From positions 64,001-128,000 of IMG/VR virus record IMGVR_UViG_3300046787_000508: DNA of 64,000 nucleotides; one strand, written 5' to 3'. The notes beneath the pieces were generated by a model, which was not told the DNA's origin, made no database searches, and worked only from the letters and a program-made list of their open reading frames with translations. Positions 15,901-63,278 of the stretch are shown piece after piece. Both the position numbers and the translations under genes were made by a program. Position 1 is the stretch's first letter. Every line of letters begins with the position of its first letter. Origin of the DNA: a virus. Taxonomy: Duplodnaviria > Caudoviricetes.

Positions 15901-18656
15901 GGAATAAAATGTGTTGCGCCCACTTCTTTAAAAAGTGTGGATAATCTAACTTCACCAACGGTCGAATTTGTACCTTCTTTAACCACTTCATTTGGTGTTA
16001 TTTTATCATCTAAATCAATAAATGGTAATGAGTTTAATAAGAGATACGCCGAACCGACATACTTTTCGTTTATACCACTCTTTGTAAAATCTTTATAGAG
16101 TTGTTTATGAAAGTACGGTGTGTTTAATATATGTTTTGACAGGGTATTACCTGAAATATCTCTAAAATCCATCGTTTGGGTAAAAAGGTTTTCTTGAAAC
16201 TCTTTTTTCGCCCACATTTTTCCGTTAACAGATGAAGTAACAAATGCCTCATTAGTGTCCACTTTTAACATGTTGTTCAATAACAACTCACTATCTTTAT
16301 ATTCTGTGATATTAAGATACGATAAGTAGGTAGATGAGTTAAACGGATATAATGATAATCTATATGGTTCGGGTTTGTAATTACTTAAATCATAAGATAG
16401 TTTATCGTATTCTCCATCAAAATTTAACGTTTTAGATGTTTGAACATATTTTTCAATAAAAAAATCCTGTGATAATAAATCCTTTATATAACTTACCGTC
16501 GGTAATTGGTCTTGATAATAAGGCCACCTATCGAATGCCGAGAATCCCTTCATGTAAGTTTTTAAACTCTCAACGTCCTTTATATTCGTTTTTAAAATGT
16601 CAATAATGTCATAATCACCTTCAATTTGTGATTTCAAATTTGAAAATTCAATATCCGCCAATTGTTGTATTGTTTGATTACTGAAAGAATTAAATGACGT
16701 AGTGTATTTTGCTCTTTCAAAAATTTCATATAGAACAGATGCAATTGATTTATCATAATACGGTACGTATGGTGATAAATAAGTTAATGTACTAATGTCC
16801 TTTTTACTTAATTTAGCAGTATCGGTTTCAAATGTAAAACTGATACTATCGGGATTACCCTCCTTATTTGCCAATGGGTCCGATTTTTTTGTTGACACTT
16901 GGTAGAAATTCTCAACGAAGTCTACTTCAGGCCAAAGATTTCTATCATTGGATTGTAACTTTCCAACCATATCTTTACTACCTGGGTATACTAAAACTGA
17001 ATTTTTACCCCCTGCGGTTTGTTTTTTCACTTCCGGCCAAGGATATATATCATCACCAATACTATCGGTCGATATATTTTTTAATAAATCTTTTCTAACA
17101 TTCGAAGCTTCAAACGCCTTGTAATGTACATCTCGTAATAATCGAATGTAAGCATCGGCGTTTGCAAGAATAACACCAACAATATTTCTTATTGTAGGTT
17201 CAAATCCAATTCCAAGAGTACCATCACTAACGATTGCATTCATTTTCTTTTCGATATTCAATTCAAGTTTGTTTCTTTGTTCAACAAAATCTCTTTGAAT
17301 GTCATAAAGGGTTTCTAATAAGTCATCAATATTAACCCCTACTTTATCTTTAGTTCTATAAAAGTTTTTTAAATTCTTTAATCTCCCAAATGATACAGGA
17401 TGAATATCAAAGTCTAACTTACGTAATAGTTTCTTATCTCTATTTTCACCGAAAGCCTCGTTTTGACTTAATTTATCTGAGTAATTTTTAATAATGGTTT
17501 CTAAAGTTCCTGATGTGGTTGAACCTGTGATAGTTGTTAGTTCAGTCTTTTTGTTGCCCGCTAATTCGTGCCATCTTTTAAAGTAGGTTGTACCATCAGG
17601 TTTTTGAGTTGGAATATCGTCCTCCTCATATACCGCCGATAGATGTTTCGATTTCCAACCGATAATTGCGTTTTCAAATGTCGTTATTGTATCTTCAAAA
17701 TTTTTAATACCTGCAAGTACTTTATGGTCAATAATTTTTGAGAATAATTCCTTTTCTAAAATACTGTTTAATCTACCGGCAATAACAATTACTTCCCTCA
17801 ATGTTCTTGGTGGGAAGTCTTTGGGTAATAATCCTTTATTTATATATTCTTGATAAACCGATTTTAATATACTATAACCTTTTGTTGATTTTGTAACTTT
17901 CTTATCTTGTAATTTGGTATTACCATTAATGTTTCCATCGGTTGTTGTTTCAGTTAAAAACATATATGGTGCATCTAAAATACCTTCCAACGGAATGTCC
18001 GAAAGATAAGCATGAGTTGACCCAATAAATGATGTTGTTACTTCAAAGTTACCATTGGATGAATTATATCTTGAATTAAACTTAACTAAGTGTAATCTGT
18101 ATCTTATCGCCTTACCGTAAAATCCTTTTACCGTTAGATAAAATATTGGCCATGGTAAATGAAAGAATGCTTGATATGGTGAATTTTCAGGTGATTCAAA
18201 TAATGTCTTCCCTCTTACATCAACAAAATTAATGGTAACCCTAGGTACCGCATTGGCACCTGTAATGTCAATTTTTATATTGTCTATACCGAAACCCTGA
18301 CCTGAAGTATCTGACATGATAAAATCATCGTCAATTTTTTTTGTTGCACTATTTTGTTTAATCTCAGTATATGTTTCGGTCCAAGTCGAATCAAAATCTT
18401 TTCCTTGGTTACTCATCATATTGAACGTACCCTTTGCAATTGAAGTAAGAGTGTTTCGTTCATTACCTGACACAAGTATTGAACGGGGAATTAAATCCGC
18501 CTCTAAGTTAACATACATAACCAAATTTTCAGGTTGTATGTCTCTTGGCGATATTTCTCCATTAGATACTACAGTGTTAGGGTCGATAAACATTAAGTTG
18601 TTTTGGTCAACCTTTACTAATATATCATTACTTTTTTTTAAATTATTGTTCCCCAT
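12906..18656 (-). CDS. Giant baseplate hub-like protein (gp27/GpD-like N- and C-terminal halves) with C-terminal DPBB-like domain
   Basis: N-terminal FGIDNIKIDI..VPRVTINFVDVRG and late TCDVTSLGNVMIQPTMYFYL..GSYWITEVSHNI..IETSFKG are hub-like. It follows tape measure, tube initiator and LysM genes. Confidence 0.65.
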   Translation of the reverse strand: MGNNNLKKSNDILVKVDQNNLMFIDPNTVVSNGEISPRDIQPENLVMYVNLEADLIPRSILVSGNERNTLTSIAKGTFNMMSNQGKDFDSTWTETYTEIKQNSATKKIDDDFIMSDTSGQGFGIDNIKIDITGANAVPRVTINFVDVRGKTLFESPENSPYQAFFHLPWPIFYLTVKGFYGKAIRYRLHLVKFNSRYNSSNGNFEVTTSFIGSTHAYLSDIPLEGILDAPYMFLTETTTDGNINGNTKLQDKKVTKSTKGYSILKSVYQEYINKGLLPKDFPPRTLREVIVIAGRLNSILEKELFSKIIDHKVLAGIKNFEDTITTFENAIIGWKSKHLSAVYEEDDIPTQKPDGTTYFKRWHELAGNKKTELTTITGSTTSGTLETIIKNYSDKLSQNEAFGENRDKKLLRKLDFDIHPVSFGRLKNLKNFYRTKDKVGVNIDDLLETLYDIQRDFVEQRNKLELNIEKKMNAIVSDGTLGIGFEPTIRNIVGVILANADAYIRLLRDVHYKAFEASNVRKDLLKNISTDSIGDDIYPWPEVKKQTAGGKNSVLVYPGSKDMVGKLQSNDRNLWPEVDFVENFYQVSTKKSDPLANKEGNPDSISFTFETDTAKLSKKDISTLTYLSPYVPYYDKSIASVLYEIFERAKYTTSFNSFSNQTIQQLADIEFSNLKSQIEGDYDIIDILKTNIKDVESLKTYMKGFSAFDRWPYYQDQLPTVSYIKDLLSQDFFIEKYVQTSKTLNFDGEYDKLSYDLSNYKPEPYRLSLYPFNSSTYLSYLNITEYKDSELLLNNMLKVDTNEAFVTSSVNGKMWAKKEFQENLFTQTMDFRDISGNTLSKHILNTPYFHKQLYKDFTKSGINEKYVGSAYLLLNSLPFIDLDDKITPNEVVKEGTNSTVGEVRLSTLFKEVGATHFIPYHLILKWGSIYHRYKKFITEGVDIISGTTETINVPLFFDAMSGRTYTLNNGQTVTQSSNDFGICPFYQSVFHQIVNGYTYYNLITGATSFSAAINNNVILLEGQPITGGKRWTTFIDNSKFTKTDTRYTLLPSNGRRYLYNDSSDFEKQNNFRTLWGIDSLPMGEKPINYSGQTLPTYSQYHKTITNKYSISSNYKKIIDLIAVFKSDILDTFEDAFLDFASGKINEEIPYKPYNVKYSKFQDLLKEIVSVKKGVNNPTDINELIPLLITEQTNNLKYITNELLSNENLIKLTLGNPREINNYVLGGFTGIDNQTFSVNEFNASQLTDNLDNIKLFLGEDISGDYLNFFVNNNIELSEDNIKQFRSIIHIYAGYIQNLKNEYIRLNPTDVNYNSFVYPPKSAFINYLSVNLISGPVNPVTNVSTMNDRLSLFLTRFVSKIQKELEVKKGTQVLNIVNGYNDDPVKLELYNYFKSFNDKWIAGNSIGQRGLLEEFLFIDKANKDIGDKVFLDMERLVNLVDKKNDKINLYSALSLLIQDSGFDMRALPAYVNFYGTNFTNKKKITPTKKVAESLFGTFLEVDYQESSPKIILQYIGPTSKHLELSDINKKYKYKDDSFNVGDPNNNPILVANDAFLNTDYSKANKVVAFEVSFGDQNQSMFKSVQLDQSSIKNTSESFKIMERLGQQETGSSTAQIDIGLFDIYRQSSYTCDVTSLGNVMIQPTMYFYLKNIPLFRGSYWITEVSHNIRAGNIETSFKGTRIPIQSLPNPEDSFLASYRSLFDKLVKKAVTRVKSENLQLQNAKGTEKVIQNEEGTFTIDISSKTPIKGEELVNQTNYKEYGIPFNGKDGEKYVQLITLNKEEWLRANVVQMGGKNYPIADDINMSYVSKLNKSIDTPILLKWSDIKDNKQMYYSTKFNVGKATPDFVVDKFKKTEFLNPTANIRYTLDTNINVTNKKYEGPVNVGPSINGYGIGMSKALLDKLKLFDGDIVYFKMTE

Positions 18657-27475: not shown

Positions 27476-30301
27476 TTAGATATTTTCAAATGATGCTCCT
27501 GTTGGAGTAATAATGAATTCAACATCTATAAATTCAAGTGAACGAGTAGGTTTGATGTAAATTTTTCCTCTCAATGTGTTTGCATCGATGTCCTCAGGGT
27601 CATTAGATACACTTACACGGAAGTCATATAAACCTCTTTCTTTCTTGATAGCCTCAAGAATTGGGTTAACCAATCTTAAGAATTCATTTCTTACTTGTTC
27701 ATCGTTTTGTTCAAACAATAATCTAACCGCAACTGCTGAAATTAATTTTCTTGCTCTTAATAACAATCTTCTTACGTTGATTCTATCTAAAGCAGATTCT
27801 CTAACTTGTAACGTTTTGTTACCCCAAATAATTGTACCTGTATCAGAGAATGTAGCGATTGGGTTAATTCTGTTTTTATATAAACTATCTCTTTCGTCAA
27901 GAGTTAATTTCTTTTGAGCTTTAATTGCGTTTACCAAACCTCTTGAGTAACCCGCTACTGCGAACCATGGGTAAGAAACATTATCAGTTAATGCGATGTT
28001 TTTCAAAACCTCACCTGTTGGTGGAAGGAATAATTGAGTTGCATTGTCATTATCTCTTACTTGAATCCAAGGCCAATATGTTGCTGAATAGTTACTATCC
28101 AAAGAAGCTGTGTCCAAATTGTCAATTGCCTCATCAGCAGATGTTACATTTGGAGAAGCCACGATGTAAAGTGAATCCGCTCTATCGTTCTCAATCATAT
28201 CAATTGCTGCGGTTGTTAATGAACCGTGGTCAAAGAAGTTAATACCAGGAGTTGCAAATACGTTAATATCTACAGCTTCAGGGTTTGAGAACGTTTCAAT
28301 ACCTTTAGTGTAAGCGTAGTAATCAGAATTACCAAAGTTTACATTAAACACACCACCGTTGTTAGTGTTATTTGCGGTGTAAGTTGACTTACCAAATATA
28401 AATGAATCTGTGTTAGTTCTATTTTTTTGGTAGATATCCCAACCGTCAAATCCTCCAAACACTGCGAATGTGAATTTACGTGAAGCTAAAGTATCTAATT
28501 TTCCTTTATTAGTTCCCTCTAAATCGTAAGGTGTACAATCATAAGCAAAACCTGTAATTGTATTACCTGTAATTGAAGATGCATTTGTTGATAAGTGGAA
28601 ACCTGGCGTTACTTTGTCAGGATTAACTCCCTTGTATTTTAAAATGTCCTTATCAAAACCAACTTTAGATGATAAACCTAAAGATACTTTTTTGATTTTA
28701 TCTCCTGATTCAACTGTACCAAATGAATTGTATGCTGCTAAATCAACGATATCACCCGCATCGTGGTATTGTGTTTTGTAAATTACTGAACCTAATGTTG
28801 TTCCACTAATAGTGTCTGTAACGAAACCTTTAAAACCTGCAGGAATTGCGTCCGTAGGGTGACCGTCAGCCAATACCAATGTAATGAATTTTGAACGTAA
28901 TTCATATTCACCATCAGATGTACCGATTTTTCTACCGATATAACCTGGTTTATCTAAACTCATTGAACATCTAGTGTATTTTTCCAATACAACCATATTG
29001 TCGTCAGTATCGTTGAAATCACGAACTAATACATCAAATTCACCTTCTTCTAAGTTAATGTTCACGATTGAGATTTTTACTTGGAAGTTTGCCATCTCAC
29101 CGTCTGAAATTGTTTGGATTTGGAATAAGTCAGCAACATTACCACCTCGTACTTCAGAAACCACCATAGGTGATATTGTAGTATCAAACTCAGCAACGAA
29201 ATCATTACCAGTTGAATGGTAAACCTCATCTAAACTAATTCCTCTAACCAATCCTCTACTATATAAAGTTTGGATTAAATTAGGGTAAATTTCATGAACA
29301 TACATTGGATACTCGTCCATATCTTTATCAAATACATCTACACCTAATACTTTAGTGATATATTTTGTTGACGTGTTATCTAATGAACATGTGTATGTTT
29401 TAGTAGATGTACCTGAAGATATAGATACTTCAAATTCCCCTAAAATGTTAGTGTTAACACTTGTTGAATTGATAGTAAACCCACTATTATTTGTTACTTT
29501 TAGATTTAATGTACTACCCGCGTATTCACCTCTTGACCTTAAAGCTGCAACGGTAATATTGTTGTAATCATTAACAGTTGCACCTGTATAGTTAAATTTA
29601 GTTACATTGAACGTGTTCGATGCTCCTGAATAAACAAAAAGGTAAGAATTTAATCCGTTAACGACACCACCACTAGTCGTGTAGTAATCATTTGACCATC
29701 TATAATCAGTTGCGTCACCGATTGGTCCTGTTATTTCTGTTCCTGATAGTGAGTTAGTTTCAGAATCAGGTACGAAACCGATTGTGAACCAATCATTATT
29801 GGAATATGTACCACCCACAATGAATTCAGTTACACTGTCACCTGTTGTTGCAGTTTTACCTGATAATAATGAGTAGAATGTACTTCCTGTTACTCCTGTA
29901 ACGGTTGGAATTAATGTCCCTGTAGTATCTACAGGTGTTGACGTAGCATCAAATGTGACACTACCTAATGTTTTAAGACCAAATGTTTTATTTGGTTTAT
30001 AACCCGTTAATCCAAGTACTCTTGTTACGAATAGTTGGTTTGATTCTTGAAGATAAGATTTTGCAACATAAGGTAATTCATATTTTGGGTTACCATTACC
30101 GTATTTCAAAGGTGATGTGGTACCAAAATATGTCTTAAATTCGTCGAAATTTGTAATCAATACAGGTTCGAAAGCGGGACCTTTTAAAGTCTCACCTACT
30201 AAACCTAATGTTGTTACTCCGACACTTTGTGCAACAAATGTTAAATCCTTCTCTGAAGTGTAGACCCCTGGAGAAACGAATACTCTGTTTGAATTTGCCA
30301 T
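27476..30301 (-). CDS. gp18: Tail sheath protein (gp18-like)
   Basis: FVSPGVYTSEKD, GETLKGPAFEP, SNYSATYWPW, PWFAVAG..RG, LYKNRINPIATF, IWGNKTLQ, RINVRRL. Confidence 0.97.
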   Translation of the reverse strand: MANSNRVFVSPGVYTSEKDLTFVAQSVGVTTLGLVGETLKGPAFEPVLITNFDEFKTYFGTTSPLKYGNGNPKYELPYVAKSYLQESNQLFVTRVLGLTGYKPNKTFGLKTLGSVTFDATSTPVDTTGTLIPTVTGVTGSTFYSLLSGKTATTGDSVTEFIVGGTYSNNDWFTIGFVPDSETNSLSGTEITGPIGDATDYRWSNDYYTTSGGVVNGLNSYLFVYSGASNTFNVTKFNYTGATVNDYNNITVAALRSRGEYAGSTLNLKVTNNSGFTINSTSVNTNILGEFEVSISSGTSTKTYTCSLDNTSTKYITKVLGVDVFDKDMDEYPMYVHEIYPNLIQTLYSRGLVRGISLDEVYHSTGNDFVAEFDTTISPMVVSEVRGGNVADLFQIQTISDGEMANFQVKISIVNINLEEGEFDVLVRDFNDTDDNMVVLEKYTRCSMSLDKPGYIGRKIGTSDGEYELRSKFITLVLADGHPTDAIPAGFKGFVTDTISGTTLGSVIYKTQYHDAGDIVDLAAYNSFGTVESGDKIKKVSLGLSSKVGFDKDILKYKGVNPDKVTPGFHLSTNASSITGNTITGFAYDCTPYDLEGTNKGKLDTLASRKFTFAVFGGFDGWDIYQKNRTNTDSFIFGKSTYTANNTNNGGVFNVNFGNSDYYAYTKGIETFSNPEAVDINVFATPGINFFDHGSLTTAAIDMIENDRADSLYIVASPNVTSADEAIDNLDTASLDSNYSATYWPWIQVRDNDNATQLFLPPTGEVLKNIALTDNVSYPWFAVAGYSRGLVNAIKAQKKLTLDERDSLYKNRINPIATFSDTGTIIWGNKTLQVRESALDRINVRRLLLRARKLISAVAVRLLFEQNDEQVRNEFLRLVNPILEAIKKERGLYDFRVSVSNDPEDIDANTLRGKIYIKPTRSLEFIDVEFIITPTGASFENI

Positions 30302-39673: not shown

Positions 39674-40510
39674 TTATGTTAATCTAATTAAAATGTGACT
39701 TCCACTTCTATAAAGTCCACCTAATGGTACATTACCAGCTTCCGCCTCAGAATCGTTTGCAAAATTTAAACTTGACGAAACCTCAGATAATACAACAAAT
39801 CCATTTGTGGTTAGGTTTTGTGTTACATCTAAATTATTTAATAAATTAACACTCCCACTGAATTCGTATTGATAACCTTCACTAACGTTAACCGTATTAA
39901 ACCCAACTACACCTGAACCACTAATATGTATTTGAGGGTTTTCCCATCTATTTTGTGAAAATAAATTTAAATTGGCGGGATGAGAAGGTCCACCGACTGT
40001 ACCAACATATAAATCTTTACCTACATTCAATAGATACGAATCATTCGCATAACCAACATACCCACCGGTATATTGACTTGAATTTATCCCCAAATCTACG
40101 TAATGTATGAATTCAGTACCATTATCCGCCGTAACCACAATGTCGGCACTTGCATTTGAACCACTATTAGTGTTTTGTAGATTGATTTGAGTATATGCAT
40201 AATGGTTACCACTAAAATGTGCAACATTATAACTACCACTATTCTCAACATGTAATATTTCGGGATTGTTAGTGTGAGTAATACCCGAACCAACCACAAC
40301 CTGATTCTTAAATGTTGATGAACTTGAAACAAATAACGTACCTTGTATTGTTTGGTTACCACTAAAGGTATGTGAACCACTATCCACTAAAACGGTTCTA
40401 AGGGTACCCAATGACGACTTATAGGTTTGACTACCATCGTCATAGATTGTGTACCCCGTTAAACTTGGGTTAGTTGTTCCCGAAAAATCCTTTATATATT
40501 TGTTTGGCAT
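39674..40510 (-). CDS. Tail fibre-like beta-rich protein
   Basis: G/S/N/T-rich beta repeats; C-terminal FANDSEAEAGNVPLGGLYRSGS...IR motif of the kind seen in aquatic phage fibres. Confidence 0.55.
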   Translation of the reverse strand: MPNKYIKDFSGTTNPSLTGYTIYDDGSQTYKSSLGTLRTVLVDSGSHTFSGNQTIQGTLFVSSSSTFKNQVVVGSGITHTNNPEILHVENSGSYNVAHFSGNHYAYTQINLQNTNSGSNASADIVVTADNGTEFIHYVDLGINSSQYTGGYVGYANDSYLLNVGKDLYVGTVGGPSHPANLNLFSQNRWENPQIHISGSGVVGFNTVNVSEGYQYEFSGSVNLLNNLDVTQNLTTNGFVVLSEVSSSLNFANDSEAEAGNVPLGGLYRSGSHILIRLT

Positions 40511-40783: not shown

Positions 40784-42865
40784 TTAATCATCCCACCAGA
40801 TGTAATCGTTTATTAATTGTTCACCATCATAATCATCCATTGTAACTGATGTTATTGTTTCATCACTAACTAAGAAAAACTCTTTTGTTCCTTGACCTTG
40901 GAATATAACCACAAATCTATCTTTTGCTGAATATATGTCACTCCAATTATTGTATTGTGTTGTGTAGGTGTTTAATATTGTTCCTGTAAAATCATATAAA
41001 TTTATTGTATAAACACCACCATCTGATTCGTTATATACTAACATAAACTTATCTTTCCCAACTGACATATTGTAATTATAATATTCTGGAATAGTAAACT
41101 CTGAACTAATTCCACTATTAGTTAAAACTCTACAGTTTAATCCACCTTCAGACCATAATACCATATTACTTGGGGTTAAGAATGTAGATGTGAAATAATC
41201 ATTTGGTGTACTAATTTGATTGTAATGTGTTGTTGATGTAAACCCAGTACTTCCACTATAAACATAATATGCATGATTAGTAGTAGACGAATCAGTATAA
41301 CGTAAATAAAATACATCGCCGTTACTAGTCATATTGTAAGCATAATTTGAATATAATATCGGGTCTAAACTATCAAGAATTGTTCCGTCGTTACCAATTA
41401 AATTGAAGAACATATCTATTCCGCTGTTTGTACTGTAAGATGTTACAAGTCTATCTCCCATTGAGTAATAATTGGTGTCGGTTATACCTGAAACTGGTTC
41501 AGTTAAATCTGCAATTGTTACACCACTTATTGTAATTGTTATCACACCTAATGTGTTACCTGTTGTTTCGCAGAATGATTTATAAGTGTTACCAAGATTA
41601 CCCCACGTTGCCACCGTTCTATTTGCACCATTTGTCACAGAATAAGTTGTAAATCCGGTTTGGTTATTCAACATATAAACATAGTCGAAATAATCACATT
41701 GCGGTCCCAAATTACTGTATCCAACTTCGTTATATAATGAAATTACAACACTACCATCGACACTGCTATCAGGCCAATAACTTTCGTCACCATTTATGTT
41801 AATAGCATCATAATTAGAACCTCTAACGTGAGTTGTTTCAGTTAAAGTTCCTGTTGTACCATTGTAATGGATTATTTTATAATCGACAGCGGTATTGTCC
41901 CAATTGTAATAAACCGCACACATTCTATCTGTTCCAAGAAAACGAGCATCTACACTAGCGTATGTGTCTCCCGTAAGTGATATTGTTTCTAAAATATCAC
42001 CGTCGGTGTTATAAATTTCTAAACTTGTGTATTGATTGGTATCTTGGTCTCTAGTTTCAACGGCAATGAAATCGATAAATGGTGATATCATATGGTCAAC
42101 ATTTATACAGTCGCTCCAAGTTTTGAATGGAATAACTGTACCATCAGGTTTCATAATATATGACGCACCTGCACCATTACACGCCCATTGTCCAATTTCA
42201 TATTTTTTTACAATAATAGAACCGTCACCCATTACGGCATCATAATCCCATTCAATATCAATATTATGTGTTTCAGGATTCCAAGTGTAAGTATATAAAT
42301 CTATTCCGTTGAAATATTTTAATATACCATTATCAGCATCTTCATATGTAATCCATTTACCATCTAAACTATTAAGGTCATAACTATTTGTTGTTCCACT
42401 ATATTGACCAACAATGGCGTTCGATGCATCTGTGAATATTACGAGATTTTCGTTGCCATTGTCTCTACCTGCAAAATGATAACCATATCCTGAATCGGTT
42501 AACGGATAAAGGTTGTAGTTGTACCAATAAGTTGAGTCAATTCCTAAATCAATAACCTCAGCGGTGAAATCGTTAAAGTTTAACGTTGCTGCACCATAGT
42601 TACTCGAAGTTGTCATTCTATCTGAATGAACGAATAATTGTGTTTCAACTACCGGTTCGTCAATCGTTAACGTATACGTGTAATCATACTCGGCCAAATA
42701 GATGTTGTAAACACCATATGGATGTGATGTAATGTTATTAAAAGGGATTGTTTTAGTTCCAAGGTTTACCGTGGTACCTGATGTTGTCCCTGTATATGGT
42801 ATAAACGTTACTGTTGCCGTCTTACCACTTAAGTTCTCACTTGTTATTCTTGCTCCTATTGCCAT
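40784..42865 (-). CDS. Virion surface / receptor-binding-like protein (Y/T/D/N-rich, beta-propeller-like)
   Basis: 693 aa, beta-rich composition, late motif upstream, dense [ST]GxT motifs. Confidence 0.55.
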   Translation of the reverse strand: MAIGARITSENLSGKTATVTFIPYTGTTSGTTVNLGTKTIPFNNITSHPYGVYNIYLAEYDYTYTLTIDEPVVETQLFVHSDRMTTSSNYGAATLNFNDFTAEVIDLGIDSTYWYNYNLYPLTDSGYGYHFAGRDNGNENLVIFTDASNAIVGQYSGTTNSYDLNSLDGKWITYEDADNGILKYFNGIDLYTYTWNPETHNIDIEWDYDAVMGDGSIIVKKYEIGQWACNGAGASYIMKPDGTVIPFKTWSDCINVDHMISPFIDFIAVETRDQDTNQYTSLEIYNTDGDILETISLTGDTYASVDARFLGTDRMCAVYYNWDNTAVDYKIIHYNGTTGTLTETTHVRGSNYDAININGDESYWPDSSVDGSVVISLYNEVGYSNLGPQCDYFDYVYMLNNQTGFTTYSVTNGANRTVATWGNLGNTYKSFCETTGNTLGVITITISGVTIADLTEPVSGITDTNYYSMGDRLVTSYSTNSGIDMFFNLIGNDGTILDSLDPILYSNYAYNMTSNGDVFYLRYTDSSTTNHAYYVYSGSTGFTSTTHYNQISTPNDYFTSTFLTPSNMVLWSEGGLNCRVLTNSGISSEFTIPEYYNYNMSVGKDKFMLVYNESDGGVYTINLYDFTGTILNTYTTQYNNWSDIYSAKDRFVVIFQGQGTKEFFLVSDETITSVTMDDYDGEQLINDYIWWDD

Positions 42866-42884: not shown

Positions 42885-42892
42885 TATAAATA
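42885..42892 (-). promoter_or_regulatory. TATTTATA motif (putative late promoter)
   Basis: 19 nt before the ATG at 42865. Confidence 0.55.
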
Positions 42893-42933
42893 CTTTATTT
42901 TATTGTATCTTTTATTATTTGTTATATTTTATT

Positions 42934-47799
<4,866 letters not shown>

Positions 47800-47852: not shown

Positions 47853-48638
47853 ATGAATAATTTTATTAAACAGGTAATTGAGGAGAAATTTGCTTCAAAA
47901 GCACAACAACGTTTCTTCTATGCAAAGGCAAACGAAAAGGGTGCCAGCAAGAAAGAAAAAGAAAAATGGGGTAAGATGGCGAAGGAGTTTTCAGATAAAA
48001 CAAATTTTAAAAAAATCCCTAATAAAGTTGATGAAACCGACCCAAATCAAGAAGAATTACAATTTGATGAGATTGTTGATGCCGATGGAAACATCATGAC
48101 AGGGTCAAAACCAACTAATGCCAACACTAAAGGTATTACTTCAAAATCTACAAGTGATGACGTTGTAAGGTCAGCAATGGGTCAAATGGGTACATTTGGT
48201 ATTGCAGGCGGAACGAGAAAAGGTGCAACCACAATGAGATATTGGGGAGAATCTGATATGAGTAAAGCATTAGGTTATGAAGACACGTTGGGTAGTGATG
48301 AGGATATCGAAGACGCTAAAAGTCATTTTGAAGATGAATTAGGTTTGCCTGATGATGAAGCAAAAGAAAGAATGAACAAAATGGGATACGATGAGAATTT
48401 ACCTGACGATAAGGTTAGGTTAATTGAGACCCCAAAGAAATTCATAGAAGAGTATATTGAAAGTTTATTGGCTAAGAAAACAAAATCAGATGATTTAGTG
48501 AAAGGTAGTCAAAACGAAATTGATGAGAAAAAAATTAACCCTATATTAATGAGACAATTAAAATCTTTAAAGAGTTCTTTAAAAGATAATGATTTATCGG
48601 TAAAGGATATTATTGATTATTTAAACGACAATGAATAA
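47853..48638 (+). CDS. Hypothetical late protein (putative head cargo)
   Basis: N-terminal basic module FASKAQQRFFYAK...KW..MA.EF...T followed by an acidic region. Confidence 0.75.
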   Translation: MNNFIKQVIEEKFASKAQQRFFYAKANEKGASKKEKEKWGKMAKEFSDKTNFKKIPNKVDETDPNQEELQFDEIVDADGNIMTGSKPTNANTKGITSKSTSDDVVRSAMGQMGTFGIAGGTRKGATTMRYWGESDMSKALGYEDTLGSDEDIEDAKSHFEDELGLPDDEAKERMNKMGYDENLPDDKVRLIETPKKFIEEYIESLLAKKTKSDDLVKGSQNEIDEKKINPILMRQLKSLKSSLKDNDLSVKDIIDYLNDNE

Positions 48639-49122: not shown

Positions 49123-49123
49123 T

Positions 49124-50667: not shown

Positions 50668-50687
50668 TTTAAAAATATATTTAGAAC

Positions 50688-51278: not shown

Positions 51279-51281
51279 GAT

Positions 51282-51310: not shown

Positions 51311-51329
51311 TTATTAGATAAAGAATTAT

Positions 51330-52559
51330 ATGTCAAAAATACGAATATTAGCAATCCCCTCCGACACACATGGAGTTGGTAAATTTAGAATTTTAGGTCC
51401 ATACACGTTCATCCAAGAAAACTACGGTGAAGATTTCCACGTGGACATTAAAACTAACGTACCCGATGATGATAAAGAATTTGAAAATTACGATATTGTA
51501 GTTTTTCATAGTTTTATCCATTCTCATTCTGAGTTTGAAAGAAATTTAGAAAGAATTGAATGGTTAAAGAAAAAAGGTATCATCACAATTATTGATAACG
51601 ATGACTATTGGGAACCTGATTTCAGACACCCAATGTACAATCAAATTATCAAAACGGGTACACCAAAGAAAAAGGTCCAATTATTAAAATTGGCCGATTA
51701 CATTACAGTAACTACACCAATATTTAGGAACACAATTAAAACAAAACTTGGATTAACCAATGTTCAAGTGTTTCCTAATGCCGTTGATGAAACAGAACCA
51801 CAATATAAACCAAACCCAACAAAATCAGATAGAGTTAGATTTGGTTGGTTAGGAGGTTCTTCTCATTTCCACGATTTAGATTTAATGACTAGCGGGATTA
51901 ACTCGGTTTATTCATCACATAAAGATAAGGTACAATTTGTTTTATGTGGATTCGATTTACGAGGTACCGTTACTGAAATCGACCAAAAATCAGGTCAAAA
52001 AAGACAAAGAGATATACGTCCTCATGAAACTACTTGGTTCCAATATGAGAAAATATTCACAGACAATTATCGAGCAATTGATGAAGACTACTTAAAATTC
52101 CTCACATCATTCAAGGAAGAAGAGTATAACGACATCGATTTACCATATAGAAGAAGATGGACAATGCCAATTTCAAAATATGCTTTGAATTATAATCATT
52201 TTGATGTATCTTTGGCCCCGTTAATACCATCAACGTTTAACGGTAACAAATCCCAATTAAAATTAATTGAGGCCGGATTCCACAAAAAGGCAATCATTGC
52301 AAGTGAAACTGACCCTTACACAATTGATATTATTAGTGCCGTTAATGAAGGTAAATTTAATGACAATGGTAATGGATTATTGGTTAACCAAAATAGAAAC
52401 CACAAAGAGTGGGCAAAACATATGAAGAAATTAATCGACAATCCAAACATGATTGAGGATTTAGGTAATCGTTTATATGAAACAGTAAAAGACACATACT
52501 CAATGAAAAAAGTATGTAAAGATAGAGTAGAATTTATTAAATCAATTATTAACAATTAA
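51330..52559 (+). CDS. Glycosyltransferase, GT-B fold (GT4-like)
   Basis: GVGKFRI..P, IDNDDYW, ADYITVTT..F, V.VFPNAVD, RFGWLGGSSH..DL, FDVSLAPL..S.FN..KS.LKLIEAG....IIAS. Confidence 0.85.
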   Translation: MSKIRILAIPSDTHGVGKFRILGPYTFIQENYGEDFHVDIKTNVPDDDKEFENYDIVVFHSFIHSHSEFERNLERIEWLKKKGIITIIDNDDYWEPDFRHPMYNQIIKTGTPKKKVQLLKLADYITVTTPIFRNTIKTKLGLTNVQVFPNAVDETEPQYKPNPTKSDRVRFGWLGGSSHFHDLDLMTSGINSVYSSHKDKVQFVLCGFDLRGTVTEIDQKSGQKRQRDIRPHETTWFQYEKIFTDNYRAIDEDYLKFLTSFKEEEYNDIDLPYRRRWTMPISKYALNYNHFDVSLAPLIPSTFNGNKSQLKLIEAGFHKKAIIASETDPYTIDIISAVNEGKFNDNGNGLLVNQNRNHKEWAKHMKKLIDNPNMIEDLGNRLYETVKDTYSMKKVCKDRVEFIKSIINN

Positions 52560-55130: not shown

Positions 55131-55294
55131 ACATATTCAAATATGAAATAATAAAAATGTGTCTAGAACGAATTATGTCGGAATACGATGAGGTCGATGA
55201 ACAAATGGGGGCATTAGCCACTCGTGAAATGTCGGTATCATTTAAATTGGCATTTAATACACTATTAAAAAATGAAATCTTAATCGAAGAATGA
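55019..55294 (+). CDS. Hypothetical protein
   Basis: 91-aa ORF whose stop overlaps the next ATG; typical codon and amino-acid usage. Confidence 0.7.
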   Translation: MVEILGKYYYVDIDSITEKCKTGEIINEEDGTQGTEINIFKYEIIKMCLERIMSEYDEVDEQMGALATREMSVSFKLAFNTLLKNEILIEE

Positions 55295-56358
55295 GCAACA
55301 ATCAAACAAACATTGAAAAATTAGAATCTGCATTAAGTAGAATCGAAAACAAGGAAAGTGTAATTTACTTTCTAACTTATGACACTAAGAATAACCCAAG
55401 AGCGTCTGTAAAAAATATTTACGACATGGCGCTTGCGTTAAAAGAAAATGGTTACAATGCCAAAATCTTAGTGGAAGATAACACGTACACAGGTGTACAA
55501 AATTGGTTAGGTGAGGAATATCTAAAATTAGACGTGGTATCAATTAAGGATGATAAAATTGAAATCATGGTTGACGATGTGATTGTAGTACCTGAACACT
55601 ACTCAAACGTATTACCTCAATTAACCAATGTTAAATCCGTTAAAGTGGTCTTAGTACAACAAAAAGATTACATTTTCGAGACATTATCAATTGGTAGTAA
55701 ATGGAGTGATTACGGTTTTGATAAAGCAATCACAACAACTGAGGAATCAAAAAAATACATCTCGGAATATTTCCCTGAAAGTTTAGTACATATCATTCCA
55801 CCATTCATTGGGGATAATTTCACTCCAACCGAAAAACCTATTAAACCATTTGTGGCTATTAGTAGTAGAGATAGATTAATTCACCGAAGATTAATTTCAG
55901 AATTTTATTTAAAGTACCCACAATTACGTTGGGTTACTTTTAGAGATATGGTCCAAATGACCTACGATGAATTCTCAGAAGCGTTAAAAGAATGTATGGT
56001 ATCTGTATGGGTTGACGATGAAAGTACCTTTGGTACATTCCCATTGGAGTCAATGAAATGTGGTGTACCTATTGTGGGTAAAATCCCAAATTCAGAACCA
56101 GAGTGGATGGACGAAAATGGATTATGGACTTATGATATCAATAAGTTAGTTGAAATTTTGGCAACTTATATTTTAGCTTGGTTAGAAGGTGTAGAATTAA
56201 CTGAAGAGGTAAAAGATAAAATGAAATCTACTGTTTTACCGTACACTAAAGAAAATCATAACAACAAGACATTGGCGGTTTTTGGGTCACTAATTTCAAT
56301 TAGAACCGAATCAATAAAAACAGCATTAACAAAATTAAAACAAGAAGAAACAGTATAA
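55291..56358 (+). CDS. Glycosyltransferase-like protein, GT-B fold
   Basis: SVKNIYDMA..LKENGY, DDVIVVPE, C-terminal DDESTFGTFPLESMKCGVPIVG is a variant of the GT4 EGFGLP.LEAMACG.PVV motif. Confidence 0.75.
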   Translation: MSNNQTNIEKLESALSRIENKESVIYFLTYDTKNNPRASVKNIYDMALALKENGYNAKILVEDNTYTGVQNWLGEEYLKLDVVSIKDDKIEIMVDDVIVVPEHYSNVLPQLTNVKSVKVVLVQQKDYIFETLSIGSKWSDYGFDKAITTTEESKKYISEYFPESLVHIIPPFIGDNFTPTEKPIKPFVAISSRDRLIHRRLISEFYLKYPQLRWVTFRDMVQMTYDEFSEALKECMVSVWVDDESTFGTFPLESMKCGVPIVGKIPNSEPEWMDENGLWTYDINKLVEILATYILAWLEGVELTEEVKDKMKSTVLPYTKENHNNKTLAVFGSLISIRTESIKTALTKLKQEETV

Positions 56359-56359
56359 C

Positions 56360-57148
56360 ATGAAAAAAATAACAATACTTTTACCAGTACATAAATTAGA
56401 CGGTGATGACATCATTATGTTGAAAAATGCAGTTGACTCTGTTGAGGATTTTCATAACGATGTTAAAGTTTCAATCATTGCACCAAAAAATCTAAAATCA
56501 CAATTAATCGAATTAGGTTTAAGTGAAAAATTAGAAATAAACATTCTTGAAAATACAACAAAACAAACTGATTTCGTAAGTCAGATTAATTTAGGTATTG
56601 AAAACTGTGATACTGAATGGTTCTCAATCTTAGAGATGGACGATGAGTATAATAAAGTTTGGTTAACTGCTGTTAGTGAATACGCTCACAACTATAAAGA
56701 CGTTGATGTTTTCTTACCGATAGTAAAAGATATCAATGTTGAAGGTTCATTCTTAAGTTTCACCAACGAATCGGTTTGGGCTTACGGGTTCACCGAAACT
56801 CAAGGTTATTTAGATAACGAAGTACTATTAGAATACCAAAACTACCAAACTAGTGGTGGTCTTTATAAGACTGAGGTAATCAAGGAAAATGGTTCATTTA
56901 AAGATAACATGAAGTTAACTTTTAGTTACGAACTATTATTAAGATTAACCCACAATGGTGTTAAAATCATGGGGGTACCGAAAATCGGATACCAACACGT
57001 AAACTTCAGAGAGAATTCGTTATTTTGGTCATATAAAAATGACGATAAAACAAAATTAACAGAGGAAGAAGTTAAATTTTGGTTAGAGACGGCCAAAAAA
57101 GAATTTTTCTTCAAAAATAAACGTGAGATAATTTATACAGAAGCTTAA
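56360..57148 (+). CDS. Glycosyltransferase family 2 (GT-A fold)
   Basis: ITILLPVH, INLGIENCDTEWFSILEMDDEY (DxD-like), FSYELLLRL..NG.KI...P...Y.H. Confidence 0.8.
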   Translation: MKKITILLPVHKLDGDDIIMLKNAVDSVEDFHNDVKVSIIAPKNLKSQLIELGLSEKLEINILENTTKQTDFVSQINLGIENCDTEWFSILEMDDEYNKVWLTAVSEYAHNYKDVDVFLPIVKDINVEGSFLSFTNESVWAYGFTETQGYLDNEVLLEYQNYQTSGGLYKTEVIKENGSFKDNMKLTFSYELLLRLTHNGVKIMGVPKIGYQHVNFRENSLFWSYKNDDKTKLTEEEVKFWLETAKKEFFFKNKREIIYTEA

Positions 57149-57846
57149 TGCCAAGACCCAGAACCCAAAAAATCTATTTTGGGGAGGAGCAAGAAAAGGC
57201 GGTAGTCAGTTACCTTGAAAGTACTGATGATGCGGAAAGAAACAAGATATTCAACGAATATTTAAGAGACCCTCTCACAATTATGGTTGAAAGTATCATT
57301 AGAAGATACAAACTATACAGGAAAGACTTTGAATTCATAGATTTACATACGGATACAATGTCTTTCCTAATTACAAAAATAAGTAAATTTGACCATACGA
57401 AGAACCATAAGGCTTATTCGTATTTTGGTACTATTTGTAAAAACTACCTTATGGGTGCAATACAAAAAGACCAAAAAGATATGAATAGAACAGTGTCTTA
57501 TGACGATATATCTTCGGATATTGAGGAGAGACCTGATTTAACATACGTCATTGACAACACTCCATTAGACTATAAAGATGTTATTGTTAAGTTAACAACA
57601 ACTTTAGAGGAATTTATGGAAAGAGAGGATTTGAACGAAAACGAACAAAAGTTAGGTTATGCCTTACTTGAAATATTCGGTAATTTCGACAAAATCTTTG
57701 AAGTCGGAGAAGGTAACAAGTTCAATAAGAACTTGATTCTCCTTTCATTAAGGGAAATGACATCATTATCAACTAAAGAAATCAGAGTGTCAATTAAGAA
57801 ATTCAAAAAAATGTACGATGGTATACTTTTTAATTTCCTAAATTAA
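57148..57846 (+). CDS. Phage RNA polymerase sigma factor (gp55-like)
   Basis: YFG..E.AV..Y, L..MVE.II.RY, KFD..K..KAYSYFGTICKNYL matches the gp55/sigma region 2 (KAFSYFT.I..N) pattern. Confidence 0.72.
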   Translation: MPRPRTQKIYFGEEQEKAVVSYLESTDDAERNKIFNEYLRDPLTIMVESIIRRYKLYRKDFEFIDLHTDTMSFLITKISKFDHTKNHKAYSYFGTICKNYLMGAIQKDQKDMNRTVSYDDISSDIEERPDLTYVIDNTPLDYKDVIVKLTTTLEEFMEREDLNENEQKLGYALLEIFGNFDKIFEVGEGNKFNKNLILLSLREMTSLSTKEIRVSIKKFKKMYDGILFNFLN

Positions 57847-61904: not shown

Positions 61905-63278
61905 ATGTCATATTTCCGTTCATACTTTAACAAAAACAACACGTTAGTAAAAGACTCTCAGATTAATACCGCTAAAAATCCAAATACCGAGATATTCTAT
62001 GGTTCAGGATTTTCTAAGTATATCTTTAGAGTTGACCTTACCGATTTGAAAAGTAAAATCGATAATGGTGAATTAGTTCTAAACGAGAACACAAAACATT
62101 ATTTACATTTAACTAACACCATTTTTGGTGACGAATCTCTAATGGGACAGAAAAGAGGTACGGGTAGAGAAAGAACTACGTCGTTTAACCTTATAGTTTT
62201 CCCTGTTACTGAATTTTGGGATGAAGGTGTTGGATTTGATTACGAACAAGCTTACGATTTTACAACAGGTAATGAAACATTTGACGAAAGACCGTCAAAC
62301 TGGTTTAATAGAACGACTTTGGATAGTTGGACTCAAGAAGGTGTTTATTCTACTGACCCATCGGAAATAATTGCAACAGTACATTTCGATAATGGTAATG
62401 AAGATTTACATGCAGACATTACAACATTCTTAAATGGTGTTCTAACAGGCTCAACCCCAAATTACGGAATGGGAGTTGCATTTGCACCCGCATACATGGA
62501 TATAACCAATGAGGTTGACCAATCGGTCGCTTTCTTTACAAAATACACTCAAACATTTTTTGAACCATTTGTAGAAACGGTATTTAACGATACTATTGAA
62601 GACAATAGAGAGAACTTTATTGCCGAAGTGGATAGAAATCTTTATTTATACGTGACTAAGGGAACGAATTCATATGATTTGGATGAATTACCTACAGTCG
62701 ATGTTTTGGACTCAACCAGCAACCCTATTTCGGGTCTGACGGGACTTACAACAACAAAGGTAAGAAAGGGTGTTTATAAAGTTACATTTGGTTTGACGGG
62801 ATTTTTATGTGATGGAAAAAAATTCTATTTTGATAAATGGAAAAACATAAAATTAGACGGTGTAGACTTTAGTGACGTTATTCAAAAATTTGTACCTAAA
62901 CAACATACTTCACTATTCTCCATCGGAGCAAACCAAACAGAATTGGAACGATATTCAATTCAATTTTTTGGTGTGAAAATGAATGAAAAAATAAAGAGAG
63001 GTGAAAACAAGAAAATCGTTGTAACTTTTAGGTCTATAAACCAACCAATGTCGGTTCTATTTGATGATGTGTACTATAGAATATACATTAAAGAGGGAAG
63101 AACCAACATTAATGTGTTTGATTGGACAAAATTAGATAGAACGAATGAAAATTCATTTATGTTAGATACCAGTTATTTAATTCCTCGTGAATATTTTGTT
63201 GAGGTTAAGGCTAAGACTCATGGTGAAGAGATATACTATAAAGATGAAATCAAATTCGAAATCATTTCGGAAAAGTAA
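61905..63278 (+). CDS. Hypothetical structural protein (beta-sandwich domains)
   Basis: 457 aa; W.EG.G.DY, SNW......W...G, FFT..T.T.F.P..E pattern recalls DNRLRE-like structural domains. Confidence 0.6.
   Translation: MSYFRSYFNKNNTLVKDSQINTAKNPNTEIFYGSGFSKYIFRVDLTDLKSKIDNGELVLNENTKHYLHLTNTIFGDESLMGQKRGTGRERTTSFNLIVFPVTEFWDEGVGFDYEQAYDFTTGNETFDERPSNWFNRTTLDSWTQEGVYSTDPSEIIATVHFDNGNEDLHADITTFLNGVLTGSTPNYGMGVAFAPAYMDITNEVDQSVAFFTKYTQTFFEPFVETVFNDTIEDNRENFIAEVDRNLYLYVTKGTNSYDLDELPTVDVLDSTSNPISGLTGLTTTKVRKGVYKVTFGLTGFLCDGKKFYFDKWKNIKLDGVDFSDVIQKFVPKQHTSLFSIGANQTELERYSIQFFGVKMNEKIKRGENKKIVVTFRSINQPMSVLFDDVYYRIYIKEGRTNINVFDWTKLDRTNENSFMLDTSYLIPREYFVEVKAKTHGEEIYYKDEIKFEIISEK

What the first reader, a model, noticed from the sequence alone, without database searches (positions are those of the whole stretch)
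40784..42865. Recurrent hydrophobic-[S/T]-G-x-T motif in exposed virion proteins: candidate sequon for phage-encoded virion glycosylation
Seen, by manual count of strict [ST]GxT: about 11 copies in this 693-aa protein (LSGKT, YTGTT, TSGTT, YSGTT, LTGDT, QTGFT, TTGNT, ISGVT, VSGIT, YSGST, STGFT). About 7 in the sheath, all in the variable insertion region rather than the conserved core. About 6 in the 1916-aa hub, about 6 in the 1621-aa adhesin, and 3 each in the 303-aa LamG, 278-aa fibre and 457-aa proteins. A rough composition-based expectation is about 1 per protein for the 693-aa protein, sheath and hub. The residue before the motif is usually I/L/V/Y/F. In contrast, NrdA, NrdB, gp32, SNF2 and the GTs have none, and the single hits in DnaB and RecA are their Walker A motifs (PolB has 2, RNase H 1). 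Established: some phages glycosylate capsid and tail proteins with their own glycosyltransferases (mycobacteriophages), and Bacteroidota O-glycosylation uses short sequons such as D-[S/T]-hydrophobic. Inference: a motif shared across unrelated folds, concentrated in surface proteins, in a genome with three GTs, looks like a modification signal distinct from the host sequon. It would give a glycan-coated virion.
Basis: partly seen in the sequence, partly recalled or inferred. Interest (0 to 1): 0.88.

Follow-up and report, generated by a model that had tools for sequence, protein, structure and literature searches.

The report
Ser/Thr-Gly-x-Thr tag on phage tail proteins
The outward-facing tail, baseplate and fibre proteins of this uncultured aquatic jumbo phage and its relatives carry the motif hydrophobic-Ser/Thr-Gly-x-Thr several times more often than chance, in a way that points to a tag read by some other molecule, perhaps the phage's own sugar-adding enzymes, though no modification has been shown.

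Summary
The 693-aa protein (window 40784-42865, minus strand) has exactly the 11 [ST]GxT copies listed, against 1.55 expected. Genome-wide the count is 143 against about 67 (z about 10). Reversed and permuted motifs, [ST]GxS, NGxT and DGxT sit at chance. Codons vary, so the signal is in the protein, not the DNA. Paralogy and local composition do not explain it. The excess lies in outer, late-expressed tail proteins. Head, inner tail and enzymes are at chance.

The trait belongs to one clade. Sheath enrichment falls from 5.1x to 3.5x to 1.7x with distance. The nearest named phage, Mel-JY01, has 0 copies against 4 expected. Distant homologues of the same double-propeller fold are at 1.06x. In the sheath and adhesin the sites turn over about as fast as background, yet the numbers stay high. 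A 203-kb relative also enriches [ST]AxT.

This favours a selected tag read in trans over a purely structural turn. Three glycosyltransferase-like genes are conserved across the clade, but their acceptors cannot be inferred. Glycosylation is therefore plausible and unproven. Earlier follow-ups in this scan reported the same motif on other genomes of this clade.

The parts
40784..42865 (-). 693-aa late protein P0001 with 11 [ST]GxT sites (residues 13, 25, 29, 156, 298, 403, 435, 447, 459, 537, 540)
   Evidence: In the family alignment A1 (75 sequences) each sequence has 6-12 sites against 1.44 expected.
42886..42893 (-). Late-promoter-like GTATTTAT, 28 nt upstream of the P0001 start
   Evidence: The 8-mer RTATTTAT is 16-19x enriched upstream of ORFs. 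It precedes the sheath, tube, portal, terminase, fibres, adhesin and P0001.
42656..42865 (-). N-terminal module of about 70 aa holding three invariant motif copies (NLSGKT, YTGxTSGTT)
   Evidence: Invariant columns in A1. pLDDT is low, 57-73. The same module heads many other proteins of different lengths, usually followed by a PT linker.
40787..42643 (-). Tandem beta-propeller body (residues about 75-693) with 8 motif sites at strand-to-loop junctions
   Evidence: AF2 model md61e20fc51c9, pLDDT 90.4. Foldseek hits are tandem WD/YWTD propellers.
42934..47799 (-). 1621-aa adhesin-like late protein, 7 sites. Its N-terminal 490-aa domain carries 1-8 sites in relatives.
39674..40510 (-). 278-aa fibre-like protein, 3 sites against 0.57 expected
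   Evidence: It is 60% identical over 189 aa to a 1252-aa fibre protein elsewhere in the genome.
27476..30301 (-). Tail sheath (941 aa), 7 sites
   Evidence: Pfam Phage_sheath_1 and Phage_sheath_1C at residues 657-931. Counts.
28334..30001 (-). Sheath insertion region (residues 101-656) holding all 7 sheath sites (7 against 1.58 expected)
   Evidence: The sites are labile among relatives.
12906..18656 (-). 1916-aa tail/baseplate protein, 6 sites against 1.2 expected
10678..11589 (-). 303-aa LamG-domain protein, 3 sites against 0.95 expected
   Evidence: Pfam Laminin_G_3. Counts.
61905..63278 (+). 457-aa late protein, 3 sites against 0.48 expected, with a late-promoter motif upstream
51330..52559 (+). 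GT-B/GT4-type glycosyltransferase (409 aa), candidate reader of the motif. It has 0 motif copies itself.
   Evidence: phrog_7162, E 7e-34. Weak Pfam GT4/GT1 hits. AF2 model pLDDT 86. Foldseek hits are GlgM, MshA, PglA, BshA, SdgB and T4 AGT. Conserved at 50-91% identity in relatives. More than 6,600 homologues.
55291..56358 (+). Second GT-like gene (355 aa)
   Evidence: Weak Pfam Glyco_trans_1_4 hit. PDB 8xsg glucoside glucosyltransferase, E 2e-7. Present in 5 of 5 relatives.
56360..57148 (+). Third GT-like gene (262 aa, weak GT2 match)
   Evidence: Pfam Glycos_transf_2, E 1.3e-4, just under the cut-off. Present in 5 of 5 relatives.
47853..48638 (+). First gene of the plus-strand run 47853-52559 that ends with the 409-aa GT. 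It has a late-promoter motif 24 nt upstream.
   Evidence: No plus-strand terminator-like site lies between it and the GT. Its function is unknown.
57148..57846 (+). Late sigma factor-like gene directly after the GT pair
   Evidence: phrog_234 late sigma transcription factor and a weak Sigma70_r2 hit

Best explanation
Hydrophobic-[S/T]-G-x-T is a short linear tag that this clade of uncultured aquatic jumbo myophages keeps under selection on the outward-facing parts of its late tail, baseplate and fibre proteins. The sheath's inserted domains are included. Something encoded by the clade reads the tag in trans. The leading candidate is cytoplasmic O-glycosylation of the Ser/Thr at the start of a strand-loop-strand element by one or more of the three clade-conserved glycosyltransferase-like genes.

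Shown:
- The enrichment, its specificity for order and residue, and its restriction to outer late proteins.
- Its restriction to one clade.
- Its positional turnover at constant density in two protein families.
- Its absence from distant homologues of the same folds.

Inferred:
- That a trans-acting reader exists.
- That the enzyme is a GT.

The 693-aa protein is a late tail-associated protein. It consists of a modular 70-aa N-terminal anchor plus a tandem beta-propeller, and it carries 10 anciently fixed copies of the tag.
For: 1. Specific enrichment. The count is 143 against 67 genome-wide. Permuted motifs, [ST]G.S, NG.T and DG.T are at chance. The extended motif occurs 84 times against 22.
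2. The signal is in the protein. Six Ser/Thr codons and three Gly codons are used at the sites.
3. It sits on outer late proteins only. Window virion/late set: 43 against 12.9. Enzymes: 5 against 2.4, of which 2 are P-loops. Head: 3 against 1.05. Inner tail and baseplate core: 1 against 2.1. P0001, the adhesin, the sheath and the fibres all have the late-promoter motif.
4. The top proteins show no BLAST paralogy, and the folds differ.
5. The trait is clade-specific.
- Sheath ratios are 5.14, 3.45 and 1.68 at >=58%, 41-53% and <=38% identity.
- Mel-JY01 tail proteins have 0 copies against 3.96 expected.
- Propeller homologues fall from 5.6x to 1.06x with distance.
6. Selection acts on number, not position.
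- In sheaths the motif occupies 34 and 47 sporadic alignment columns (5.6 and 4.9 per sequence). Permuted motifs give 1.3-2.2 per sequence, and the distant tier equals the controls.
- A given site is retained in another clade member 30% or 25% of the time. Random residue triplets are retained 22% or 17% of the time.
- The adhesin N-domain has 15 sporadic columns (2.4 per sequence) against 0-0.2 for controls.
7. A 203-kb relative (G002) is enriched 2.9x, including in proteins with no homologue here. It also enriches [ST]A.T 2.5x, whereas this genome has 0.72x. This looks like a shift in reader specificity. It also argues against a strict requirement for Gly geometry.
8. Three GT-like genes are conserved in 5 of 5 relatives. 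They are absent from Mel-JY01, the immuto phage and HTVC008M. The 409-aa GT may be transcribed from a late promoter.
9. There is precedent. [quoted passage not shown] Mycobacteriophages glycosylate virion proteins with their own GTs (Freeman 2023, as cited in PMC12619734).
Against: - No chemical evidence of any modification exists.
- The GT fold matches protein (SdgB), DNA (T4 AGT), lipid-linked-sugar and small-molecule transferases equally well.
- The two adjacent GTs have no late promoter and sit next to dUTPase/dCTP-deaminase-like and PhoH genes. They could serve DNA or host-envelope glycosylation instead.
- The link between GTs and motif rests on one clade, so it is confounded by phylogeny. 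The contigs are fragments.
- In P0001 the excess sits at 10 conserved columns, and sporadic sites are at control level. A structural or binding role fits that pattern equally well.
- All sites sit at strand-turn junctions, where a Gly-containing turn is structurally sensible.
Confidence: 0.4

Rival explanations
1. The motif is a clade-specific structural idiom. It would be a preferred way of closing beta-hairpins (strand, hydrophobic residue, Ser/Thr cap, Gly, x, beta-branched Thr opening the next strand) in the beta-rich outer domains of these phages. Selection would act on folding or stability, and nothing would read the motif.
For: - Every site in the AF2 model of P0001 lies at a strand-to-loop junction, with a hydrophobic residue at -1 and often -3.
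- In the P0001 family the sites are fixed at 10 columns and the x position varies freely.
- Two copies belong to the conserved signature of a modular N-terminal domain found on many proteins.
Against: - The same folds in more distant phages carry no excess. Tier C sheaths are at 1.68x, equal to permuted controls. Mel-JY01 has 0 against 3.96. Distant propellers are at 1.06x.
- Asn and Asp are not enriched before the Gly. From memory, they are as good as Ser and Thr at that turn position.
- Sheath relatives replace the Gly by D, N, Q, S or A at aligned positions without losing the domain.
- A relative also enriches Ala at the Gly position.
- Rapid positional turnover at constant density is not what a fold-determined turn predicts.
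Confidence: 0.28
2. The tag is read by something other than a glycosyltransferase. Candidates are another modifying enzyme (kinase, acyl- or ADP-ribosyl-transferase), an assembly chaperone, or a decoration protein that docks on exposed hairpins.
For: The evidence for a trans-acting reader is the same as for the best explanation. Nothing ties the motif specifically to the GTs. Most genes of the clade, including the five upstream of the 409-aa GT, have no recognisable function.
Against: No candidate enzyme or partner was identified. The GTs are the only recognisable protein-modifying candidates that are conserved across the clade and absent from the unenriched outgroups.
Confidence: 0.2
3. The enrichment is an artefact of composition, internal repeats, paralogous domains or a DNA-level word.
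For: The outer proteins are rich in Ser, Thr and Gly. Some fibre proteins carry SGSSQI..[ST]G[IL]T repeats.
Against: - Global and 20-residue local shuffles give z values of 9.8 and 9.4.
- Permuted motifs of the same composition are at chance.
- The top proteins show no paralogy.
- Codons at the sites vary, and the other reading frames give 8 and 18 hits.
Confidence: 0.02

Closest known systems
Virion glycosylation of mycobacteriophages by phage-encoded glycosyltransferases (Freeman et al. 2023, Cell Host Microbe; read only through its citation in PMC12619734, as the paper itself is not held)
   Same: A tailed phage carries its own GT genes, and exposed virion proteins are the proposed targets.
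   Different: In mycobacteriophages the glycans sit at the C-termini of capsid and tail-tube subunits. Here the tube has no motif, the capsid protein has 2 internal copies, and the excess is on the sheath insertions, baseplate periphery and fibres. I know of no 4-5-residue sequon described there. Here nothing is chemically shown.
Aah/TibC autotransporter heptosyltransferases of E. coli (PMC3835316, citing Charbonneau et al. 2012)
   Same: These are cytoplasmic O-glycosyltransferases acting on beta-rich adhesins. [quoted passage not shown] In the P0001 model the Ser/Thr is the second loop residue at 5 of 8 folded sites.
   Different: Aah has no sequence consensus, whereas here the consensus is sharp. 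The phage GT is a generic GT4-type GT-B enzyme, and no Aah/TibC structure appears among the top 50 fold matches.
SdgA/SdgB and GtfA/B O-GlcNAc transferases of Gram-positive adhesins
   Same: These are GT-B enzymes that modify many Ser residues of surface adhesins in the cytoplasm. SdgB is among the fold matches of the 409-aa GT (rank 21).
   Different: Their targets are long low-complexity SD or Ser-rich repeats, not isolated hairpin motifs in folded domains. The fold match is no better than the matches to DNA or small-molecule GTs.
Kuenenia stuttgartiensis S-layer O-glycosylation with probable site G-[T/S]-X (PMC5088730)
   Same: It is a short Gly-containing O-glycosylation motif present in many copies on one surface protein.
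   Different: The order differs (Gly directly before the acceptor). It is a cellular S-layer with a different enzyme system, and the motif there is itself only inferred.
Phage DNA glycosylation (T4 alpha/beta-GT; virus-encoded GTs that hypermodify DNA, bioRxiv 10.1101/2023.12.21.572611)
   Same: The phage encodes GT-B glycosyltransferases, and T4 AGT is among the fold matches (rank 24). Two of the GTs lie near nucleotide-metabolism genes.
   Different: This would explain the GTs but not the protein motif. No thymidylate-synthase-like or TET/JBP gene was found in the 203 kb held. That record is only about 60% complete.

Membership tests
Phage virion glycosylation (mycobacteriophage type) | Phage-encoded glycosyltransferase genes | tested here: met
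   Three GT-like genes. The 409-aa one is solid (phrog_7162 E 7e-34, GT-B model). The 355-aa and 262-aa ones are weaker.
Phage virion glycosylation (mycobacteriophage type) | Targets are the C-termini of the capsid and tail-tube subunits | tested here: not met
   The tube has 0 motifs. The capsid protein has 2, at internal residues 209 and 306. The excess is on the sheath insertions, baseplate periphery and fibres.
Phage virion glycosylation (mycobacteriophage type) | Glycan demonstrated on virion proteins | not testable with these tools
   This needs glycoproteomics or glycan staining. No cultured member of the clade is known to me.
Aah/TibC-type structural-motif O-glycosylation | [quoted passage not shown] | tested here: met
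   All 8 folded-domain sites in the AF2 model of P0001 bridge a strand-loop-strand element. At 5 of them the Ser/Thr is the second loop residue. This rests on a model only.
Aah/TibC-type structural-motif O-glycosylation | Enzyme belongs to the autotransporter heptosyltransferase family | tested here: not met
   The top 50 Foldseek matches of the 409-aa GT are GT4-type enzymes (GlgM, MshA, PglA, BshA, TreT, SdgB, AGT). No Aah/TibC structure is among them.
Bacteroidota general O-glycosylation | Sequon D-[S/T]-[A/I/L/V/M/T] on the targets | tested here: not met
   26 observed against 31.2 +- 5.0 in the outer virion set.
N-linked glycosylation | N-x-S/T enrichment | tested here: not met
   99 observed against 110.5 +- 8.9.
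Generic beta-hairpin turn motif | Comparable frequency in homologous folds of other phages | tested here: not met
   Tier C sheaths 1.68x, equal to permuted controls. Mel-JY01 0 against 3.96. Most distant propeller homologues 1.06x.
Generic beta-hairpin turn motif | Gly obligatory, and Asn/Asp as acceptable as Ser/Thr before it | tested here: not met
   NG.T 1.28x and DG.T 1.08x against [ST]G.T 2.14x. Gly is replaced by D/N/Q/S/A at aligned sheath sites. [ST]A.T is 2.5x enriched in relative G002.
Collagen-like G-x-T repeats (BclA type; recalled from memory) | Long runs of G-X-Y triplets | tested here: not met
   Only 5 overlapping doublets ([ST]G.TG.T) occur in the genome, and there are no long runs.
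Phage DNA glucosylation (T4 type) as the role of the GTs | Gene for making a hydroxymethyl-pyrimidine or another acceptor base | tested here: inconclusive
   No Thymidylat_synt or Tet_JBP match. The record is only about 60% complete, and the TET control search found nothing in any of the control genomes either.

The most novel reading that the evidence does not exclude
An abundant clade of uncultured aquatic jumbo phages runs its own sequon-directed protein glycosylation system. A conserved GT4-type enzyme, with two partner GTs, would decorate Ser/Thr in hydrophobic-[S/T]-G-x-T hairpins on the sheath surface, baseplate periphery and fibres. The phage would keep tag density high while the positions drift, and the sequon would have relaxed to [S/T]-[G/A]-x-T in one sub-clade. 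This would be the first defined sequon for phage virion glycosylation.
Probability: 0.3. Interest if true: 0.8.

Novelty: new variant of a known kind. Interest (0 to 1): 0.62.

Why it matters
If the tag is a modification site, a large and environmentally common group of phages coats its tail and fibres with a self-made modification. The GT family alone has more than 6,600 close relatives in metagenomes. Such a coat would affect adsorption, host range, particle stickiness and resistance to proteases. It would also give a simple sequence rule for predicting modified virion proteins from metagenomes.

The motif is short, sharply defined and present in folded, expressible domains. The hypothesis can therefore be tested by co-expression in E. 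coli without culturing the phage. If the tag is structural instead, it is still a clean example of a lineage-specific turn idiom under selection.

Tried and rejected
- **P0001 against known phages and families.** tblastn against GenBank phages gave no match. Pfam and PHROGs gave nothing usable for P0001 or the other top-enriched proteins.
- **DNA-level word.** Rejected: codons vary and the off-frame counts are low.
- **Paralogy among the enriched proteins.** Rejected.
- **Local composition.** Rejected.
- **Clustering of sites.** Only modest: spacing <=12 residues occurs 18 times against 9.9 expected.
- **GT acceptor from sequence or fold.** No discrimination was possible.
- **Genes upstream of the 409-aa GT.** Pfam, PHROGs and two Atlas look-ups gave nothing.
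- **Co-occurrence of GT and motif across 39 relatives' contigs.** The GT was found in 14, and in none of the 9 distant-tier contigs. All contigs are fragments of 3-68% completeness, so this is uninformative.
- **DNA-hypermodification genes.** None found, but the genome is incomplete.
- **HSP70, to place the phage among the 'moraphages' of PMC12619734.** None found in the 203 kb held, so membership of that lineage stays open.
- **Freeman et al. 2023.** The paper is not held.
- **GT-substrate complex prediction.** Not run, because the tool's own guidance says enzyme-substrate pairs rarely give a useful answer.
- **Solvent exposure.** Could not be computed, because model coordinates are not returned. 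Only the secondary-structure context was used.
Full report
**What is there**

The window is bases 64001-128000 of a 202,894-bp IMG/VR virus record (GC about 33%, CheckV completeness about 60%). It is a distant T4-like jumbo myophage. The best named sheath relatives are Microcystis phage Mel-JY01 (32% identity), Flavobacterium phage immuto and Pelagibacter phage HTVC008M.

The finding's coordinates are one minus-strand ORF of 693 aa (P0001). The motif GTATTTAT lies 28 nt upstream of its start. RTATTTAT is 16-19-fold enriched upstream of ORFs. It precedes the sheath, tube, portal, terminase, fibres and the neighbouring adhesin, so it behaves as the late promoter.

An AlphaFold2 model built on 75 homologues (pLDDT 90.4) shows two parts. 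Residues 1-70 are of low confidence. The rest is an all-beta body that Foldseek matches to tandem WD/YWTD propellers. A profile search shows that these are separable modules:
- The 70-aa N-terminal module heads many other proteins of 200-700 aa, usually followed by a Pro-Thr linker.
- The double propeller also occurs behind other N-termini.

P0001 is therefore most simply a late, tail-associated protein with an anchor module and a propeller head.

Yes. The 11 listed pentapeptides are all present, against 1.55 expected (P <= 0.0005).

- Genome-wide there are 143 copies against 66.8 +- 7.8 in whole-protein shuffles. Against shuffles confined to 20-residue windows the expectation is 74.3 +- 7.3.
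- The reversed motif is at 1.05x. The permutations are at 0.89x, 1.37x and 1.29x. [ST]G.S is at 1.08x, NG.T at 1.28x, DG.T at 1.08x, and [ST]A.T at 0.72x.
- Among all a-b-x-c patterns, only Pro-Thr linker and SGSSQI repeat patterns score higher than SGxT and TGxT.
- The sites use six Ser/Thr codons and three Gly codons, and the other frames give 8 and 18 hits. The signal is therefore in the protein.
- The strongly enriched proteins are not BLAST-detectable paralogues. They are the 693-, 723-, 589-, 306-, 1956-, 1423-, 1916- and 941-aa proteins.
- A hydrophobic residue precedes 59% of sites against a 33% background. The five-residue motif is 3.8-fold enriched (84 against 22 +- 4.5).

**Where it sits**

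| Protein set | Observed | Expected |
|---|---|---|
| Window late/virion proteins | 43 | 12.9 |
| Replication, nucleotide and GT enzymes (2 are Walker A loops) | 5 | 2.4 |
| Head and packaging proteins | 3 | 1.05 |
| Inner tail and baseplate core (tube, hub-like, gp25, baseplate J, 1585-aa protein) | 1 | 2.1 |
| Sheath, inserted region 101-656 | 7 | 1.58 |
| Sheath, conserved N- and C-terminal core | 0 | 0.30 |

By analogy with T4 gp18 (from memory), the inserted region is the outward-facing part of the sheath. The tag therefore marks the outside of the tail, not the whole virion.

In the P0001 model every site bridges a strand-loop-strand element. At five of the eight folded sites the order is strand, hydrophobic residue, Ser/Thr, Gly.

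**Is it just a turn?**

Four results argue that it is not merely structural.

1. *Relatedness.* In 80 sheath loci from IMG/VR the sheath ratio is 5.14 at >=58% identity, 3.45 at 41-53%, and 1.68 at <=38%. In the last tier it equals the permuted controls. The four large tail proteins of Mel-JY01, including a sheath that aligns over 82% of ours, have 0 copies against 3.96 expected. Homologues of the double propeller decline from 5.6x through 4.8x, 2.9x and 2.3x to 1.06x with distance. The same folds exist without the motif.

2. *Residue specificity.* Asn and Asp are not enriched before the Gly. At aligned sheath positions, relatives carry D, N, Q, S or A in place of the Gly.

3. *Turnover.* In the two enriched sheath tiers the motif occupies 34 and 47 different low-frequency alignment columns. 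That is 5.6 and 4.9 per sequence, against 1.3-2.2 for permuted motifs. A site is found in another member only 30% or 25% of the time. This is hardly more than three random residues of the same region (22% or 17%). Yet every sheath of the close tier keeps 4-11 copies. The N-terminal 490-aa domain of the neighbouring adhesin behaves the same way. It has 1-8 copies in ten orthologues and 15 sporadic columns, against 0-2 for the controls. High density with drifting positions indicates selection for the motif as such.

4. *A relative with a shifted motif.* A 203-kb relative (G002) is enriched 2.9-fold, including in several large proteins with no homologue in this genome. It also enriches [ST]A.T 2.5-fold, which this genome does not.

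The counter-example is P0001 itself. Its excess lies at 10 conserved columns, and sporadic sites are at control level. Two copies belong to the signature of the modular N-terminal domain. In this one protein a structural or binding role is as good an explanation as a tag.

**The glycosyltransferases**

Three GT-like genes lie in the window.
- The 409-aa protein is a clear GT-B/GT4 enzyme (phrog_7162, E 7e-34; model pLDDT 86).
- The 355-aa protein resembles a glucoside glucosyltransferase (PDB 8xsg, E 2e-7).
- The 262-aa protein is a weak GT2 match.

All three are present in five of five longer contigs of relatives from both enriched tiers. The 409-aa family has more than 6,600 members at typically 65% identity. 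None of the three is found in Mel-JY01, immuto or HTVC008M. The 409-aa GT is the last gene of a plus-strand run whose first gene has the late-promoter motif, with no terminator-like site between them.

The GT's structural neighbours include enzymes acting on small molecules, lipid-linked sugars, protein (SdgB) and DNA (T4 AGT). The acceptor therefore cannot be read from the fold. The 355/262 pair lacks a late promoter and lies near dUTPase/dCTP-deaminase-like and PhoH genes. No hydroxymethylase-type gene was found, but the record is incomplete.

**Comparison with what is known**

- Phage-encoded virion glycosylation is established for mycobacteriophages, at the C-termini of capsid and tube subunits (Freeman 2023, via PMC12619734). 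That placement is not what is seen here.
[quoted passage not shown] Those enzymes have no sequence consensus and belong to a different family.
- A short Gly-containing O-glycosylation site has been proposed for the Kuenenia S-layer (PMC5088730).
- A recent paper on large aquatic phages with predicted Bacteroidota hosts reports four core GT families of unknown role (PMC12619734). I could not show that this phage belongs to that lineage.
- I found no paper describing this motif.
- Earlier follow-ups in this scan reported the same motif on other genomes. I treated those notes as leads and re-tested their claims here.

**Verdict**

A selected, clade-specific tag on outer tail proteins is well supported. 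That it is a glycosylation sequon is the best single guess (about 0.3-0.4) and is untested.

Noticed in passing
window 42656-42865 (-) and proteins P0358-P0390: The first ~70 residues of P0001 form a modular N-terminal domain. It heads many unrelated proteins of 200-700 aa in metagenomes and is usually followed by a Pro-Thr linker. It is probably a shared virion-attachment adaptor.
   Followed up: partly
window 42934-47799 (-), and genome 38.8-54.5 kb (loci L002/L003): (PT)n linker runs occur in six fibre- or adhesin-like proteins, with 150 residues of PT runs in the 1956-aa protein. PT-repeat patterns (PTP, TPT) are the most over-represented tripeptides in the proteome. Such linkers are classical O-glycosylation targets in other systems (from memory).
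   Followed up: partly
whole genome; examples at window 42886-42893 (-) and upstream of 47853 (+): RTATTTAT(A) lies 8-80 nt upstream of 47 of 196 ORFs, nearly all virion or late genes. It is a late-promoter consensus different from T4's TATAAATA.
   Followed up: partly
relative G002 (loci L116-L126): This 203-kb relative enriches [ST]A.T (80 against 31) as well as [ST]G.T (199 against 69), whereas this genome depletes [ST]A.T (25 against 35). The motif seems to have shifted between sub-clades.
   Followed up: partly
window 49587-49615 (+): A perfect TTGACA-17-TATAAT sigma-70 consensus lies inside the 219-aa gene, upstream of the 294-aa gene and the 409-aa GT. It could be an internal early promoter.
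   Followed up: no
whole genome: Codons AGC (1% of Ser) and GGC (2% of Gly) are almost absent, well below what 33% GC alone suggests. This may reflect avoidance of a GC-containing site.
   Followed up: no
genome 3648-13711 (locus L001): Three large fibre proteins share SGSSQI(S/D)Y(S/T)G(I/L)T repeat units and 50-65% identical modules with each other and with the 278-aa protein at window 39674-40510. They form a mosaic fibre family.
   Followed up: partly
window 51330-52559 (+), residues about 209-280 of the GT: The 409-aa GT has a family-specific insertion between its two Rossmann halves (two short strands and two helices, pLDDT 50-80). It might be an acceptor-binding element.
   Followed up: no
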